Of a DNA stretch of 64,000 nt, positions 2,359 to 58,311 are shown one piece after another. Source of the stretch: a virus. Lineage: Duplodnaviria > Caudoviricetes. A program made the position numbers and the translations under genes. Within the stretch, counting starts at the first letter, position 1. The number at the start of each line of letters is the position of its first letter. Below the pieces are notes generated by a model. That model ran no database searches, had not been told where the DNA came from, and saw only the letters and a list, made by a program, of their open reading frames with translations. Location of the stretch: positions 1-64,000 of IMG/VR virus record IMGVR_UViG_3300037400_002591; one strand, 5' to 3'.

Positions 2359-2520
2359 CTATTTATTTCTAAATAATAATGCTGTATATAATAATGCTGC
2401 TCCAAACCATTGCAATGAAACAGGTCATTCAGCTTTGTTAGTAACTATATTTAAAATTAAACTACCAAGAGCTCCTGTAACCATTAATGCTGGAAAGAAT
2501 ATTTTTAAAAAGTTAATCAT
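2359..2520 (-). CDS. small membrane protein (1 TGA-Trp)
   Basis: 53 aa with two hydrophobic segments; start overlaps nrdG stop. Confidence 0.5.
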
Positions 2521-3019
2521 TTTCTATCTCTCCTGTTTTCATATTTATAATATTTTGATTACGGCTACCGCGCCATTTTAATGTTATGTCGCGTTCTTTA
2601 AGTTTAAAAGGGCCTTCAATCAAATAGTCTATATTTGTTAATATTTCCCCAACCCCAATTAAATTAGTATCTTCTCTTAATTGAGATAAAGTATATCCTG
2701 TTCATAAACAGATTTTAATATTTGGGAATTTATTTTTCACTACTTTTAATAGTAATTTTATAAAATCTCTTTTATCATAAGTATCTAAAGGTTCTCCCCC
2801 TAATATACTTAAATTTCTTTGTATTCCATTTGCGGAAATTAATTCAATGATATGATTAATTAAATCATTTCAATCTCAAATCTCTCCGCCATTAGGATCT
2901 CAAGCTTCTGGATTATGACAGCCCTTACAATGAAAATGGCAACCTTGAAGGAATAAACTAACGCTTACTCCTATTCCATTAACTACATCGTTACCATTTA
3001 TACCTGCAACTCTAATCAT
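2513..3019 (-). CDS. nrdG: anaerobic ribonucleotide reductase activase (radical SAM), 4 TGA-Trp
   Basis: FLQGCHFHCKGCHNPEA(W)D, ILGGEPL, (W)TGYT, WRGSRNQ; open only in code 4. Confidence 0.95.
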
Positions 3020-3503: not shown

Positions 3504-4511
3504 CATTTGCACCCTCGGTTTCCCGATATTTATTAGGGGATTAGACTATATTATCATCTTATTATTCTATTACCAAATAATAAGAGCCTTACCTTTTGCG
3601 GCGATCGCGATTAAGAATCTTTAATCGACGTCCGCGCTACTCTACTCATTTATTCATTTAGATTTTTCTTCTAAATTATACTTTCGATAGTCGTTAGAGA
3701 ACAAAACCATCTTTTTCATATTCGGACAGATATCTAAATCAATAACCACATCGAGGTTTTGTTTTAACCTTATGATTGCATTGATTTAATATAGTAGTTT
3801 TAGTAACATTTAATTCTCTAGAAGCTTCTCCTACTGAACCATATTTTTTTATCAAATTGCCTTGTAAATCAAAGCTACAAACATGAATAGATTGACTGTC
3901 ATCTCAACTTTTAGTGTTTCATTCTAAAAAGCCAAGTTGTTCATATGCATCTTTAGTATTTTCAGATACGGTTCCTCATTTTAAATTTGTATAATGTTTA
4001 TTTTCTTTATTATTATCTATATGCATTACAATAGGATAATTATTTGGATTTGGTACAAATGCTTCCGCAACTAAGATATGGACTCTTTTTTGTTTGGAAA
4101 CATTTCCTTTATAAGTAACTCCAGTGTACCAATATCCATGGTTAAGTCATTGAGCTTTATGAAAAAATTTATTTTCTCCATAATCTTTGTAAACTTCTCC
4201 AGATGGTGTAATATAATCTGTATCACTACCATTAATTAAGACCATCTCTTCTTTAATTTTACTTCTATCTATTAATTTATCTAATAATTTTCTTTTTGCC
4301 ATTGTGTATATCTCCTTTCATTAATATATGAAAAATTACTATACACAACTTCGCAGTTCTGTCCAATATTTTTTAATAATTTTATCCTACGGGATTAACC
4401 TGCTGCGTATTTCCGCAGTTTAGTCTTTCTTACCAGCTTATTACGCTTGCCCGTTTAGTAAGGTTTATTTTTTCACATAATCACTTATGCGACACCCAAT
4501 CCGAATAGTTT
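3504..4511 (-). mobile_element. group I intron in nrdD
   Basis: Splits YYTP/AENMC; 5' exon ends in U (CCT), intron ends in G; P7-type AACGACTATC and ATATAGTCTAA elements. Confidence 0.9.
3694..4302 (-). CDS. intron-encoded HNH homing endonuclease with C-terminal NUMOD1-like domain (5 TGA-Trp)
   Basis: RVHILVAEAF..VMHIDNNKEN..NLK(W)GTVSEN; 202 aa in code 4. Confidence 0.9.
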
Positions 4512-29300: not shown

Positions 29301-30320
29301 CGTATTAATCCTTTGTCACCAAAGGTACTGACTATTTCTTCGCCTTGCGGCGGGCACCGTTTCGAACTGCGTATCAATAGCAGTCCTACTCCCCAACAAC
29401 GGGGATAGTCGATACAGGTTTATACTACGATATTTTTTCAATTTTGATAACTTCAAATGTTTGTAAAACTACCTTTTGTTAATTTATCTTTATAGTCTTC
29501 ATAAACATCTTTTAAAGCTTCTCCATTTTTTCTTCTTAATCTTATATTATAAACATCTTGTTCTGTTATTTTAGATCTGCCGTTTGAAGAACCTTCATTT
29601 CCAGAATGCATTTTATGATATTCTTTATTTTCTTCTGTATATACTTCTGGAAGAATGTTCTTTCAAGTCTCTCCTTGTCATACTTTTTTAAATCCAGATT
29701 CTCCAATTCTATTATTATAATCTAAATAAACAGTTTTTTTTCTTTCATGATTATTATATCTTATGCGGATATTAATTACATCTTGTTCAGTTAATTTGTG
29801 TCCAGGATGATTCTCTCCATAATTATCTTCTCCGCCAATAGTTTGATTATAACCATCTTTATAAGTATTATAATATTTAATATAATATTTTTCTTTATTA
29901 TTTAGGTCTTGTGGTTCACATTCTTCTAATATTTCAAATGTAAAATTTTCTAATCCATATTTTTGAAAAGCTAAATATAAAGGTTTTTTACATTCTCTTT
30001 CTCAATTATATTTAGTTTTGTGTTCGCTTCATCTTTTTTCAATATGAATACTTTGACCTATATAACTATGATTATTTATTTGATTTGTTATTTTATAAAT
30101 TCCTATCATATCTATTATCTCCTTTATTTGAGATAATATCGTAGTATACTTCCCACGAGATTATCTTATTTTTCTATTATTATATGAATTTTAAACATTT
30201 CAGTTTGTCCTGAGATGTCCAAAATTTTTAATAATTTTATAAGACTCCCTCGTTAGCCATGTGGTTGCCGCATGACCCCACTGATAAGTGGAAAAATGCC
30301 TAAGGGCCAGACTATCTCTT
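29301..30320 (-). mobile_element. group I intron in gyrB
   Basis: 5' exon ends GGG-T, intron ends G; splicing restores MKGLGEM; CGACTATC and TAGTCAG P7-type elements. Confidence 0.9.
29420..30109 (-). CDS. intron-encoded GIY-YIG homing endonuclease (6 TGA-Trp)
   Basis: MIGIYKITN..YIGQSIHIEKR(W)..H..E..E..YN..GG; 229 aa in code 4. Confidence 0.9.
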
Positions 30321-45959: not shown

Positions 45960-46382
45960 GGGGATGTTTAGGTTTCGACAGGAGTTGGCGAAAAGTTAGA
46001 ATACAAGTACTAGGCAGTTAGTTAAAAGGCAACAAATAAAAATAAACGGAAACTTATTTTCAAAAATTACTAATAAAGTTAAATCTTTATTCGCATTTAA
46101 TTGCGTAGCCTTCGCGTAAGGTTAAGTAACTTCTATGTTAAGTACCAGTAGCGGACAGGGAAACGCATAGTCGTATTAATGATTCAAGGACCGCCATTAT
46201 AGGTCAGCTATCTATGCCAGCCGCCTTTAATGACTTACTTATTTGCATAGACTTGCTCTTGAGATTTGTATATGGTAAAGAGTATAGATAGAACGGTATA
46301 CACAAAACTTGTAAGGTAAGAATGAGATTTCTAATTAGTAGTTGATTTTTGGACGCGGGTTCGAACCCCGCCATCTCCACCA
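45960..46382 (+). ncRNA. ssrA: tmRNA; tag (A)GNLFSKITNKVKSLFAFNCVAFA at 46048-46119
   Basis: GGGGATG..GGTTTCGAC 5' end; GACGCGGGTTCGAACCCCGCCATCTCCACCA 3' end; G3:U70; ATAAAC upstream of resume codon. Confidence 0.93.
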
Positions 46383-49839: not shown

Positions 49840-50544
49840 GTGAGTCAGGTGAATATAGTAATACCTTTTAGAAACACATGCGGGACTGACGAGCTTGATA
49901 TGTGTATCAAATTAATCAAAAAGAATTTAAAAATTAATTATGATAACATTTATATTATTGGGGATGAGGTTAATCAATTTAAAGACTCAGTTATTAATAT
50001 TGTTGTAAACGAACAAAAATATAATAAGTGGTTAGATAGCAACTTTTTAGTAAAAACTTATATTGAAACAATTGGAAATCCTTTTATTTTATTTAATGAC
50101 GATTTCTTTTTAACTGAAAATGTTGATACTATTCCTTGTTATTATTTTGATACTTTACAAAATAGGTCTTTAACAACTTATATTATCAACGAAAAAATAA
50201 ATAAACTTAGATTATCAACATATGGGCTAAATATTGACTCATTCTTAAAAAGATTTGGTAACTTTGAAAATTATGAAGTTCATATTCCTATGATAATAGA
50301 TTATCCAAGTGTTATGTATGAAGCTATTGAACAATGTAATATAAACGATTGTCCTGCTTTAAAAAGGACAATGTATATAAAATTATGTGAAGAAAAAAAT
50401 TTTTCTAACACAATAGTAGAAATCAAACACGATGTTAAATTTAATGAACCTTTAAGAGTAATGCAATACCCATTCTTTTCTCTAACTGATAGAGCAGAGT
50501 TTGATGTATTTAGAGATGCTCTTGAAGAAATAGCAAAACAATAA
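49840..50544 (+). CDS. hypothetical protein, glycosyltransferase-like
   Basis: IVIPFR..NIYIIGD..FILFNDDFF (DxD-like). Confidence 0.5.
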   Translation: MSQVNIVIPFRNTCGTDELDMCIKLIKKNLKINYDNIYIIGDEVNQFKDSVINIVVNEQKYNKWLDSNFLVKTYIETIGNPFILFNDDFFLTENVDTIPCYYFDTLQNRSLTTYIINEKINKLRLSTYGLNIDSFLKRFGNFENYEVHIPMIIDYPSVMYEAIEQCNINDCPALKRTMYIKLCEEKNFSNTIVEIKHDVKFNEPLRVMQYPFFSLTDRAEFDVFRDALEEIAKQ

Positions 50545-50548
50545 ATGT

Positions 50549-50644
50549 AGGGGCTTAGTGTAATGGTAGCACAGCGGTCTTCAAAACCGTAAAGACGGGT
50601 CTCCAAAACCCGGGGTGTGGGTTCGAGTCCTACAGCCCCTGCCA
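50549..50644 (+). tRNA. tRNA-Trp with two tandem anticodon arms (TCA then CCA)
   Basis: AGGGGCT..GCGGT-CTTCAAA-ACCGT-AAAGA-CGGGT-CTCCAAA-ACCCG-GGGT-GTGGG-TTCGAGT-CCTAC-AGCCCCT-G-CCA. Confidence 0.85.
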
Positions 50645-50649
50645 ATTTT

Positions 50650-50723
50650 AGGGGTGTCGTTCAATGGTAGGACTCTGGTCTCCAAAACCAGGTATCTGGG
50701 TTCAAATCCTAGCACCCCTGCCA
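50650..50723 (+). tRNA. tRNA-Trp(CCA)
   Basis: CTGGT-CTCCAAA-ACCAG, A1:U72, G73, CCA. Confidence 0.93.
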
Positions 50724-50758
50724 TTTAGATTATTAAGGCGTTGCCGCGAGGTGATATT

Positions 50759-51394
50759 ATGAGTAAAAAAACTAAAGAAATGATTGATAAAGTTTTTGAA
50801 AAAGAAACAAAAAGAAGTGAAGAAATTACTAATCTAATAATAGAATTTTATAATAATGAAGATAATAACACTAATGAAAAATGAAATGAATTATATGATA
50901 ATATAGTTTCTATTATGCATATTTCATTAGTTCAGACTTATAAAATTACTATGCAAGAAGCTAGTAAAATATATGATTTTTTTCCAAAAGAAGACACTTC
51001 TCATATAAAATATAAAGATGTTGAACCGTATACATATACAGAAGATGATTTAACTCTTGAAAAAAGAATTTTAAAACATATAAAAAATGCAAAACAAAAA
51101 GATTTTAATAAATCAAATCGCAATGCATTAATTTCAAAAGAGGTTAGAATTTTAGACAATGAAACTATGATAGTTAATCAAAAACTTATTTATAAAAAAA
51201 TGAAACAAATAGAGGGTGTATATGTTTGTTTAAATCCTGGAGGCGGATGCGGTAGAAGCTGTTGTAATACAGGTGTTAACGAATGAATGCCGATTGGAGA
51301 TATTCCATCACCACCACCTTATCATACAAACTGCCAGTGTTCTTTAGATTATGTTGATGATTATATAGAAGAACCAGAAGATATAGAAGAATAA
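50759..51394 (+). CDS. protein with C-terminal Mu gpF-like motif (2 TGA-Trp)
   Basis: Readthrough yields CCN..NE(W)MPI...PPYHTNCQCSL. Confidence 0.65.
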
Positions 51395-58079: not shown

Positions 58080-58311
58080 TTAAATTAGATGGCACGTTAT
58101 TCTAGTCATCTGCAAATTATTGCTATTGAAATAATCTAGGACGATTTCATAAAAGTTTAGAGTGTAGACTAAGTGGTAATCAAGTCGCGATCATCCGATC
58201 GCCGCAAGATTAAAACGAAAGTGCAATTCTGGTAACGGAATGTTCTTAGCGAGGAAAACTTACTTGACCTAAGCTGCAATGTTATTTTTATTGAAAGCCA
58301 TCTAAAATTTT

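What the first reader, a model, noticed from the sequence alone, without database searches (positions are those of the whole stretch)
50549..50644. A single tRNA-Trp with two anticodon arms, UCA and CCA: the only UGA decoder in a UGA-recoded window
Seen: one perfect acceptor stem (A1:U72, G73, CCA), one D arm and one T arm enclose two complete 5-bp/7-nt arms, CU-UCA-AA and CU-CCA-AA, joined by AAAGA. The UCA arm has canonical spacing to the D arm and the CCA arm has canonical spacing to the T arm. A normal tRNA-Trp(CCA) follows 5 nt later, so the CCA arm is not needed to read UGG. Established: bacterial TrpRS recognises the CCA anticodon, and long variable arms are tolerated by ribosomes. Inferences: (a) a UGA suppressor whose extra arm is a built-in TrpRS identity element allowing charging by a standard-code host; (b) a two-state fold that switches readthrough on and off; (c) a fusion by deletion between tandem UCA and CCA genes, functional or not.
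Basis: partly seen in the sequence, partly recalled or inferred. Interest (0 to 1): 0.92.

Follow-up and report, generated by a model that had tools for sequence, protein, structure and literature searches.

The report
Two-headed phage tryptophan suppressor tRNA
A ruminant-gut phage that writes about a quarter of its tryptophans with the stop codon UGA carries one tRNA that reads UGA and also bears a conserved second hairpin copying the normal tryptophan anticodon loop; comparison with sister phages shows that the amino acid follows this second loop rather than the decoding anticodon, so it is most likely the handle by which the host's tryptophan-loading enzyme accepts the tRNA.

Summary
Window 50549-50644 is a 96-nt tRNA with a Trp-type frame (A1:U72, G2-G5, G73, CCA), a UCA arm in the anticodon position, and a second 5-bp/7-nt arm with loop CUCCAAA in the variable region. 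Independent assemblies carry the same junction. It recurs in dozens of phage contigs: 37 unique sequences in 14 clusters. The second stem covaries while U-C-C-A stays invariant. In-frame TGA (87 of 306 Trp-type codons) aligns with Trp. This is the only UCA tRNA in the record and in a complete relative. No phage with this arm encodes a TrpRS (0 of 43).

The design is general. Long-arm amber suppressors (CUA) display the Gln anticodon loop (52 of 76), and those phages read TAG as Gln. A sister phage with CUA plus the Trp loop reads TAG as Trp (W 27, Q 0). The amino acid therefore follows the second loop.

Best reading (about 0.68): a UGA-to-Trp suppressor whose extra arm gives the host TrpRS the CCA it needs. 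Charging and expression are untested. A conserved fold switch and a dead fusion are not supported. I found no published description. This scan had noted the same design on other genomes; I re-tested it here independently.

The parts
50549..50644 (+). 96-nt tRNA(UCA) with Trp-type frame and two anticodon-like arms (whole gene, CCA encoded)
   Evidence: ARAGORN; Rfam RF00005 60.4 bits, full length; five-arm fold predicted by RNAalifold and supported by covariation
50549..50555 (+). acceptor stem 5' strand (A1, G2-G5); pairs with 50634-50640; carries the bacterial Trp acceptor determinants
   Evidence: sequence; identity set from PMC9976931; 6 of 7 pairs covary
50558..50572 (+). D arm (4-bp stem, 7-nt loop), not the 6-bp/4-nt D arm of tRNA-Sec
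50574..50590 (+). arm 1: true anticodon arm, loop CUUCAAA, anticodon UCA at 50581-50583, reads UGA
   Evidence: the Rfam model aligns it as the anticodon arm; it sits 1 nt after the D stem in all 37 members; pair 28:42 covaries
50591..50595 (+). 5-nt linker AAAGA between the arms (0-7 nt across the class)
50596..50612 (+). arm 2: decoy arm in the variable region, 5-bp stem, loop CUCCAAA (CCA at 50603-50605), a copy of the tRNA-Trp anticodon loop
   Evidence: UCCA is invariant in 37 of 37 unique members, with 33 distinct stems; it is the most covarying helix; UCCAA occurs in 0 of 64 control long-arm tRNAs
50613..50616 (+). GGGU, the remainder of the variable region; the last U can form the 15:48 pair with A15
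   Evidence: sequence; same length as the neighbour's variable loop; the tertiary pairing is an inference
50617..50633 (+). T arm
50634..50644 (+). acceptor 3' strand, discriminator G73 (50641), CCA end
   Evidence: G73 in 37 of 37 members
50650..50723 (+). ordinary tRNA-Trp(CCA) with a 5-bp anticodon stem, 5 nt downstream; probably co-transcribed
   Evidence: no terminator between or around the two genes
50741..51394 (+). example client gene: ORF with 2 in-frame TGA, one of 35 ORFs in the record that need a UGA decoder

Best explanation
The gene encodes the phage's UGA-to-tryptophan suppressor tRNA. Arm 1 (UCA) stacks under the D arm as the real anticodon arm and reads UGA on the ribosome. 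This lets the phage translate the roughly 40% of its genes that contain in-frame TGA. In a complete relative these include tail and tail-fibre genes, while the large replication enzymes contain none. Changing C34 to U removes one of the major determinants that bacterial TrpRS reads. The tRNA compensates by carrying a second hairpin in its variable region that displays the wild-type Trp anticodon loop (U-C-C-A-A). Together with a full Trp acceptor set (A1:U72, G2-G5, G73), this arm is proposed to occupy, or tether the tRNA to, the anticodon-binding domain of the standard-code host's TrpRS. The host is probably a member of the Bacillota. The host enzyme would then charge a stop-codon reader with Trp, and the phage would not need its own synthetase.

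Shown here: the structure, its conservation and covariation, TGA = Trp, that it is the sole UGA decoder, the absence of a phage TrpRS, and the parallel Gln and Trp designs on amber suppressors with matching codon meanings.

Inferred: that TrpRS physically reads arm 2, that arm 1 and not arm 2 enters the A site, and that the gene arose by duplication or fusion of anticodon arms.
For: (1) Real, selected structure. RNAalifold, given no structure, returns the five-arm fold with 16 of 25 pairs compensatory. The explicit fold pairs in 98.5% of cells, against 82% when shuffled and 35-48% when slid, and arm-2 pair 53:67 has 14 double changes.

(2) In a scan that left arm 2 free, 35 of 51 unique long-arm UCA tRNAs carry UCCAA there, against 0 of 64 Ser/Leu/Tyr controls, p = 2e-17. 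The exceptions look like ordinary tRNA-Sec. The 37 unique members form 14 clusters at 80% frame identity with two D-arm types. All have G73 and UCCA, and 33 have distinct arm-2 stems.

(3) Arm-2 loops are 6-9 nt, and some have a pyrimidine after CCA, so they are constrained for the motif and not for decoding.

(4) TGA = Trp. Window TGAs align to TGA 12, TGG 7, TAT 6 and TTT 6. Relatives' TGAs align to W 37 and Y 13. TGA matches the conserved W of E. coli PFL activase and of the RecJ NEWxG motif.

(5) Sole UCA tRNA in the record and in a complete relative.

(6) TrpRS-family genes: 0 of 43 decoy-arm records (0 of 12 near-complete), against 3 of 18 records with plain UCA tRNAs.

(7) Published identity rules: G73, C34-C35-A36, A1-U72 and G2-G4 (PMC9976931).

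(8) Convergent design. Among long-arm tRNAs, UCA genes have UCCA 42 and UYUGA 0 of 73. CUA genes have UCCA 2 and UYUGA 52 of 76. Controls have 5 and 0 of 141.

(9) Natural experiment. A sister phage with CUA plus the Trp loop reads TAG as Trp (W 27, Q 0; no in-frame TGA). 63 loci with CUA plus a Gln loop read TAG as Gln (Q 88, W 2). A plain tRNA-Trp with CUA is known to be charged with Gln in E. coli (PMC9976931).

(10) Host clues point to standard-code Bacillota: the polymerase is nearest to those of SPbeta-like Bacillus and Enterococcus phages. The only cellular hit is a Bacilli MAG that has RF2.
Against: There are no charging, binding or expression data. The RNA contigs laid on the region stop at the gene's edges.

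Geometry is unresolved. A 5-bp arm leaving the variable region does not place its loop where TrpRS normally meets the anticodon, so the enzyme would have to dock differently or the arms would have to rearrange.

The decoy is not universally needed. 15 of 18 records with plain UCA tRNAs also lack a TrpRS. Seki et al. found 9 of 31 phage UCA tRNAs active with E. coli's own enzymes, with structures not reported.

In the natural experiment the acceptor frame changes together with the decoy loop, so the loop's own contribution is not isolated.

The TrpRS association is weak statistically (about p = 0.02) and is not corrected for phylogeny.

The host is inferred, not known.
Confidence: 0.68

Rival explanations
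1. Arm 2 is a binding site for a partner other than TrpRS. Candidates are a modification enzyme that reads A36-A37-A38 loops, a T-box leader of host trp genes (specifier UGG), a host tRNA-Trp-directed nuclease that it distracts, or a phage factor. Charging would rely on the acceptor stem and on C35-A36 of arm 1.
For: The conserved element is a displayed single-stranded UCCA(A) that could pair with UGG or be bound by any reader of the Trp anticodon loop. Plain UCA tRNAs work without it in other phages.
Against: The parallel Gln-loop arm on amber suppressors, and the match between loop type and codon meaning, call for a partner that exists for both Trp and Gln and that sets the amino acid. The synthetases fit this best. 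No candidate factor gene was found next to the tRNA. T-box recognition has the same geometric problem.
Confidence: 0.12
2. Arm 2 is a tolerated structural leftover of an anticodon-arm duplication or of a fusion between tandem UCA and CCA genes. It would be kept only because a stable hairpin is needed for folding, with no role in identity.
For: The 3' half of the gene matches the 3' half of ordinary tRNA-Trp genes. Arm 2 keeps canonical spacing to the T arm in this clade. The two arms share 12 of 17 positions.
Against: The stems drift freely (33 distinct of 37) while the loop motif UCCA is invariant across 14 clusters and two D-arm architectures. Ordinary long variable arms never show it (0 of 64 and 5 of 141). 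Amber suppressors independently show the Gln loop.
Confidence: 0.08
3. The tRNA swaps arms or decodes with both. Either arm can stack under the D stem, so one molecule reads UGA (UCA arm) or UGG (CCA arm), or it toggles between a chargeable and a decoding conformation.
For: In this clade arm 1 has canonical spacing to the D arm and arm 2 has canonical spacing to the T arm. In the window sequence two folds are nearly isoenergetic, -33.6 against -34.3 kcal/mol.
Against: The alternative secondary structure is not conserved: 72-74% paired with almost no compensatory change. The linkers around arm 2 vary from 0-7 and 1-6 nt. Nine of 37 arm-2 loops are not 7 nt, and two more have U after CCA, so many could not decode. 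A normal tRNA-Trp(CCA) sits next door. A chargeable-versus-decoding tertiary swap overlaps the best explanation and cannot be tested here.
Confidence: 0.07
4. It is a selenocysteine tRNA, as ARAGORN labels it, or a serine-accepting long-arm tRNA, so that UGA means Sec or Ser.
For: It has a UCA anticodon, G73 and a long extra arm. SerRS recognises long variable arms by size (PMC9976931).
Against: It has a 7/5 architecture, not 8/5, and a 4-bp D stem with a 7-nt loop. The general tRNA model outscores the tRNA-Sec model. TGA aligns with Trp and aromatic residues, with Ser codons at 2 of 49. 87 in-frame TGAs in 35 ORFs is not a selenoprotein pattern.
Confidence: 0.02
5. Assembly artefact or dead pseudogene.
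For: None beyond the oddity of the structure.
Against: The junction is identical in independent assemblies from other studies and hosts and in many IMG/VR contigs. Covariation is seen in all five helices.
Confidence: 0.01

Closest known systems
Phage-encoded suppressor tRNA(UCA) of TGA-to-Trp recoded gut phages (Borges et al., bioRxiv 10.1101/2021.08.26.457843; 'Agate'-like, low-GC, cattle and other animal guts)
   Same: A low-GC animal-gut phage whose replication genes are in the standard code. TGA stands for Trp in other genes, including late ones. The phage encodes its own UCA tRNA, and the host is predicted to use the standard code.
   Different: That work leaves open how host synthetases charge such tRNAs, and it detected suppressors in only 35% of TGA-recoded genomes. 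It describes no extra arm. Here the tRNA has a conserved second anticodon-like arm. Whether this phage belongs to the Agate clade itself was not tested.
AP1 TrpRS:tRNA-Trp(UCA) and the Jade-phage 'code change module': the phage brings its own TrpRS (Seki et al., PMC12636597; Borges et al.)
   Same: Both address the same problem, which is getting Trp onto a UGA-reading tRNA in a standard-code cell.
   Different: Those systems add a dedicated synthetase. Here no TrpRS is present in 43 records with the decoy arm, while 3 of 18 records with plain UCA tRNAs have one, two of them with A73 tRNAs. The decoy arm looks like the alternative, enzyme-free solution.
Tandem tRNA-Trp(UCA) and tRNA-Trp(CCA) genes of Mycoplasma and other code-4 bacteria (from my own knowledge; Mycoplasmatales tRNA-Trp(UCA) is discussed in PMC13092985)
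   Same: A UCA gene is followed directly by a CCA gene, and UGA is read as Trp.
   Different: Those UCA tRNAs are of ordinary length and are charged by a co-evolved cellular TrpRS. The double-arm form appeared in only 1 contig among about 185,000 species genomes, and that contig looks like a recoded phage element.
Long-variable-arm (type II) tRNAs and tRNA-Sec, where the extra arm is an identity element for SerRS, LeuRS or TyrRS
   Same: An extra helix leaves the variable region, and that helix contributes to synthetase recognition.
   Different: In type II tRNAs it is the size and orientation of the arm that matter, the loops are short and their sequence is not conserved. Here the loop sequence is the conserved part and it copies an anticodon loop.
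Anticodon-arm mimics in mRNA that bind their synthetase: the E. coli thrS operator (my knowledge) and the yeast HisRS mRNA mimic (PMC6542539)
   Same: A hairpin that displays a cognate anticodon loop outside its normal tRNA position is used to engage the matching synthetase.
   Different: Those mimics regulate translation of an mRNA. Here the mimic sits inside a tRNA and is proposed to promote aminoacylation of that same molecule.
E. coli su7 (tRNA-Trp with anticodon CUA), which is charged with Gln (PMC9976931)
   Same: It shows that changing the Trp anticodon shifts identity, that is, the problem a Trp suppressor faces.
   Different: The sister phage's CUA tRNA with a Trp decoy arm goes with TAG = Trp and not Gln.

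Membership tests
Phage opal-suppressor tRNA-Trp(UCA) | tRNA fold with anticodon UCA | tested here: met
   ARAGORN; Rfam tRNA model 60.4 bits with the UCA arm aligned as the anticodon arm
Phage opal-suppressor tRNA-Trp(UCA) | The genome uses in-frame TGA at Trp positions | tested here: met
   87 in-frame TGA in 35 of 86 ORFs; TGA exchanges with TGG, TAT and TTT; it matches conserved W in standard-code PFL activase and RecJ
Phage opal-suppressor tRNA-Trp(UCA) | Bacterial Trp acceptor identity (G73, A1:U72, G2-C71, G3-C70, G4-C69, G5-C68) | tested here: met
   sequence against the identity set in PMC9976931; G73 in 37 of 37 members and A1:U72 in 28
Phage opal-suppressor tRNA-Trp(UCA) | Charged with Trp and suppresses UGA in the infected cell | not testable with these tools
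   No aminoacylation or reporter data. RNA contigs do not cover the gene.
Bacterial tRNA-Sec (selC) | 8-bp acceptor stem plus 5-bp T stem | tested here: not met
   7 + 5 bp
Bacterial tRNA-Sec (selC) | 6-bp D stem with a 4-nt loop | tested here: not met
   4-bp stem and 7-nt loop. A few distant class members do have 5-6-bp D stems.
Bacterial tRNA-Sec (selC) | Best match to the tRNA-Sec covariance model | tested here: not met
   RF00005 wins the clan competition here and in all relatives
Bacterial tRNA-Sec (selC) | SelA, SelB and SECIS elements; UGA at rare Cys-like catalytic sites | tested here: inconclusive
   SelA, SelB and SECIS were not searched. The number and Trp-like alignment of TGAs argue against this feature.
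Type II tRNA (Ser/Leu/Tyr) | Long variable arm with a stem of 3 bp or more | tested here: met
   5-bp stem
Type II tRNA (Ser/Leu/Tyr) | Ser, Leu or Tyr identity, with an extra-arm loop that is short and not sequence-conserved | tested here: not met
   Conserved 7-nt loop with UCCAA; 0 of 64 controls carry it; TGA is not aligned with Ser
Synthetase-binding anticodon-arm mimic | A hairpin that displays the cognate anticodon loop outside the decoding position | tested here: met
Synthetase-binding anticodon-arm mimic | Demonstrated binding by the cognate synthetase | not testable with these tools
   The complex predictor takes proteins only. No biochemical data are available.

The most novel reading that the evidence does not exclude
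Phages have evolved a class of 'two-headed' suppressor tRNAs that separate decoding from identity. One anticodon arm is shown to the ribosome (UCA or CUA). A second, anticodon-like arm is shown to the host synthetase (CCA for TrpRS, YUG for GlnRS). The second loop decides which amino acid a reassigned stop codon receives. This would be a natural, portable way to rewrite the genetic code of a standard-code cell without bringing a synthetase.
Probability: 0.6. Interest if true: 0.93.

Novelty: new variant of a known kind. Interest (0 to 1): 0.85.

Why it matters
It bears on an open question stated by the authors who described stop-codon recoding in phages: how does a standard-code host charge a phage tRNA that reads a stop codon?

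If the second arm is the synthetase handle, it is a new kind of tRNA identity element, an anticodon copy placed outside the decoding position. It is also a natural precedent for uncoupling what a tRNA reads from what it carries.

That would be directly useful for genetic-code expansion and for suppressor-tRNA design, because in principle the anticodon could be changed freely while the native synthetase is kept.

It would also explain why tRNA finders mislabel these genes as SeC, Pyl or undetermined, which probably contributes to the low reported detection of suppressors in recoded phages.

It gives simple predictions to test: delete or mutate arm 2, or swap the Trp and Gln loops.

Tried and rejected
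(1) Expression. Two metatranscriptome runs were laid on the region. Their contigs cover the flanks (50300-50547 and 50636-50769) but not the gene. They are contigs only, so this gives no evidence either way.

(2) Seki et al. Table S1, to see whether double-arm tRNAs were among the 9 active UCA suppressors: no supplementary files are held.

(3) The cellular-genome scan gave 27 hits, of which 26 were chance matches in coding sequence. My prior estimate of about 3 random hits was too low.

(4) Leaving arm 1 free, anchored on the D arm and arm 2, returned only 9 close relatives, all with UCA. This is a weak test.

(5) GenBank and INPHARED phages: no full-length match, so no cultured phage carrying this gene was found.

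(6) The single-sequence MFE fold did not give the cloverleaf (z = -1.25). I tested that alternative fold as a candidate switch and rejected it because it is not conserved.

(7) The promoter and terminator scan was at chance level, so no transcription unit can be defined.

(8) The first all-ORF version of the TAG test in the sister phage was noisy, with spurious TGA and TAA sites from non-coding frames. I replaced it with the curated-ORF version.

(9) Five literature searches and seven papers read found no description of a second anticodon-like arm. The library lacks most subscription journals, so absence is not proven.

(10) No TrpRS or release-factor gene was found in the record, but the record is only about 50% complete.

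(11) I considered arm 2 as a mimic of the 3'-terminal CCA end. I rejected this because the base before CCA is always U, as at position 33 of an anticodon loop, and not the discriminator G, and because the Gln counterpart has no CCA.

Full report
WHAT IS THERE. The window is the first 64 kb of a 79,062-bp IMG/VR phage record that is about half complete and has 28% G+C. The minus strand from 1 to 38 kb carries a replication module. It holds a 1318-aa PolIII-alpha-type polymerase, NrdD, topoisomerase II subunits, an NAD ligase, RecJ and DnaB. The plus strand from 42.7 to 58 kb carries 25 tRNA genes and a tmRNA.

- a perfect 7-bp acceptor stem with A1:U72, then G73 and an encoded CCA;
- a 4-bp D stem with a 7-nt loop;
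- arm 1, 5 bp with loop CUUCAAA (anticodon UCA), 1 nt after the D stem;
- the linker AAAGA;
- arm 2, 5 bp with loop CUCCAAA;
- GGGU, then a normal T arm.

A normal tRNA-Trp(CCA) follows after 5 nt. ARAGORN labels the gene 'SeC'. Rfam's general tRNA model matches it end to end at 60.4 bits, against 60.0 for the normal neighbour. That model treats the UCA arm as the anticodon arm and arm 2 as a 23-nt insertion in the variable region.

NOT AN ARTEFACT. The 600-bp stretch occurs in ruminant-gut metagenomes (cattle, goat, sheep) from 17 studies. Contigs from two other studies cover 50558-50644 with 0 differences, and 50398-50644 with differences only upstream of the gene. No joints were reported. 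A pattern that spans both loops found 17 further viral contigs. Each has a 94-98-nt 'SeC(tca)' gene, usually next to a tRNA-Trp(CCA).

A CONSERVED CLASS. My first pattern fixed both loops, so I rescanned with only arm 1 and the T loop fixed. Among 51 unique long-arm UCA tRNAs, 35 carry UCCAA in the extra arm. None of 64 ordinary long-arm tRNAs (Ser, Leu, Tyr) from the same loci does (Fisher p = 2e-17). The exceptions have G1, GGAAG- or GGGAG-type starts and 7-bp extra stems, which makes them ordinary tRNA-Sec.

The 37 unique decoy-arm genes have these properties:
- They fall into 14 clusters at 80% frame identity.
- They include two D-arm architectures.
- All have G73, and 28 have A1:U72.
- All show U-C-C-A in the arm-2 loop, in contexts such as CUCCAAA, GUCCAAA, UUCCAAC and GUCCAUA.
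- They have 33 distinct arm-2 stems.
- Stems are always 4 bp or longer (mean 5.4), against a mean of 2.7 for shuffled flanks.

RNAalifold on 24 sequences, given no structure, returns the five-arm fold, and 16 of 25 pairs show compensatory changes. Counting the explicit fold gives 98.5% paired cells, against 82% when shuffled and 35-48% when slid. Arm 2 is the most covarying helix.

Arm 1 always sits 1 nt after the D stem. The linkers around arm 2 vary, and its loop is 6-9 nt long. So arm 2 is constrained to display UCCA and is not constrained to decode.

WHAT UGA MEANS. Reading TGA as sense lengthens many ORFs. In the record, 87 of 306 Trp-type codons are TGA, spread over 35 of 86 ORFs. Usage is bimodal. 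The polymerase has 0 TGA and 19 TGG. Homing-endonuclease genes, the NrdG-type activase and many small genes use mostly TGA.

Window TGAs align in related phages to TGA 12, TGG 7, TAT 6 and TTT 6, with Ser codons at 2 of 49. Relatives' TGAs align to W 37 and Y 13. Against standard-code proteins, TGA falls on the conserved W of E. coli PFL activase, on the W of the RecJ NEWxG motif, and on F of PFG. So TGA = Trp, and not Ser or Sec.

The double-arm gene is the only UCA tRNA in the record. It is also the only one in a complete 135.8-kb relative. In that relative the TGA-bearing genes include tail and tail-fibre proteins, and the replication module has 1 TGA against 113 TGG. The neighbouring tRNA-Trp(CCA) has a normal 5-bp anticodon stem, so it is not the 4-bp type reported to read UGA (PMC13092985).

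WHY A SECOND ARM. The published determinants for bacterial TrpRS are G73, the anticodon C34-C35-A36, A1-U72 and, in B. subtilis, G2-C71, G3-C70 and G4-C69 (PMC9976931). The gene has all the acceptor determinants. The only major one missing from the decoding arm is C34, and arm 2 displays the complete wild-type loop.

A TrpRS-family gene is absent from all 43 phage records with the decoy arm, 12 of which are near-complete. It is present in 3 of 18 records with plain UCA tRNAs. This points in the predicted direction, but it is weak and not corrected for phylogeny.

The form is essentially restricted to phages. Among about 185,000 species genomes the only true hit is a contig of a Bacilli MAG. 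That contig gains ORF length when TGA is read as sense, while the MAG has RF2 and so uses the standard code. The polymerase is nearest to those of SPbeta-like Bacillus and Enterococcus phages, at 39-40% identity. OLE-like and ROOL RNAs occur in relatives. A standard-code Bacillota host is therefore likely.

GENERALITY AND A NATURAL EXPERIMENT. If the arm is a synthetase handle, other suppressors should use the same trick. A scan for long-arm amber suppressors (CUA) with the extra arm unconstrained gave 76 unique genes. Of these, 52 display U-Y-U-G-A, the anticodon loop of tRNA-Gln (CUCUGAA, CCCUGAA, CUUUGAA), and 2 display UCCA.

The cross-table is:
- UCA genes (n = 73): UCCA 42, UYUGA 0.
- CUA genes (n = 76): UCCA 2, UYUGA 52.
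- Controls (n = 141): UCCA 5, UYUGA 0.
The p values are 1e-14 to 8e-32.

In 63 loci with CUA plus a Gln loop, in-frame TAG aligns to Q 88, against W 2. One phage pairs CUA with the Trp-type arm (GUCCAAA) on a Trp-type frame. It is 146 kb and 93% complete, and its polymerase is 66% identical to the window's. It has no UCA tRNA, no TrpRS and no in-frame TGA. Its 60 in-frame TAGs align to W 27, TGA 3, Y 6, F 2 and Q 0.

So the amino acid follows the second loop and its frame, and not the decoding anticodon. This matters because an ordinary tRNA-Trp with CUA is known to be charged with Gln in E. coli (PMC9976931).

WHAT REMAINS INFERENCE. No tool here can show binding, charging or expression. The geometry is unresolved, because a variable-region arm does not put its loop where TrpRS normally meets the anticodon. 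Either the enzyme docks differently or the arms rearrange.

The alternative secondary structure predicted for this one sequence is not conserved, so a designed secondary-structure switch is unlikely. A tertiary swap is not excluded.

The decoy is not obligatory in every host, because plain UCA suppressors exist without a phage TrpRS. Seki et al. also found 9 of 31 phage UCA tRNAs active with E. coli enzymes, and all 13 analysed inserted Trp.

The origin could be an internal duplication of the anticodon arm or a deletion that fused tandem UCA and CCA genes. The 3' half is indistinguishable from an ordinary tRNA-Trp, and I cannot tell these two origins apart.

NOVELTY. Borges et al. and Seki et al. 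do not mention an extra arm. Five full-text searches found nothing comparable. Earlier agents of this scan reported the same design on other genomes, for both Trp and Gln. I formed my reading before consulting those notes and reached the Gln class independently. The TAG = Trp test was prompted by one of those notes, and I carried it out here.

I class the gene as a new variant of a known kind, the phage suppressor tRNA. If the mechanism holds, it represents a new principle of tRNA identity.

Noticed in passing
window 58149-58291 (+); also L006:5210-5602, L008:5822-6158, L009:11595-11987, L010:5177-5380, L013:5077-5348, L018:8205-8376: Compact OLE-like RNAs score above Rfam's gathering threshold (78-124 bits; 84.3 in the window, covering only model positions 441-590). 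They lie inside the phage tRNA arrays, in the window just after tRNA-Tyr. OLE RNA is known from anaerobic Bacillota, and a shortened phage-borne version recurring in 6 of 8 relatives is unexpected.
   Followed up: partly
L009:3625-4261 (-): A full-length ROOL RNA (151.7 bits) lies in a related phage near its tRNA array.
   Followed up: no
window 45960-46382 (+): Phage-encoded tmRNA with tag peptide GNLFSKITNKVKSLFAFNCVAFA. Relatives carry tmRNAs whose tags also end in ...FA, and the TAG-recoded sister phage has one ending in ...ALAA.
   Followed up: no
window 3694-4302 (-), 29420-30109 (-), 2513-3019 (-): TGA use is gene-wise bimodal. HNH (5 TGA, 1 TGG) and GIY-YIG (6 TGA, 0 TGG) homing-endonuclease genes and the NrdG-type activase (4 TGA, 1 TGG) are TGA-rich. 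They sit inside a replication module whose large enzymes have no TGA. This suggests that these inserts or accessory genes are translated only once the suppressor is made.
   Followed up: partly
L246:7800-7892 (+), record G063: A sister phage recodes TAG, not TGA, to Trp. It uses a CUA tRNA with a Trp-type decoy arm, placed right after tRNA-Trp(CCA). This is a rare TAG-to-Trp code in a phage.
   Followed up: yes
L013:138-214 (-), L015:3898-3974 (+): Two relatives that carry the double-arm UCA tRNA also carry a normal-length tRNA(CUA), which ARAGORN calls 'Pyl'. They may therefore suppress two stop codons.
   Followed up: no
L002:1370-1467, L004:12-109: ARAGORN misreads two 98-nt members of the class as tRNAs with a 4-base anticodon ('aaac'). 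Standard tRNA finders give these genes inconsistent labels (SeC, Pyl, ???).
   Followed up: partly
L029, L039 (records G047, G050): Plain-length phage tRNA(UCA) genes with an A73 discriminator co-occur with a roughly 330-aa TrpRS-family gene. This looks like self-contained, possibly orthogonal TrpRS-tRNA pairs.
   Followed up: partly
full record 69659-69732 (outside the window): One more tRNA, tRNA-Ser(CGA), lies outside the window, away from the main array.
   Followed up: no
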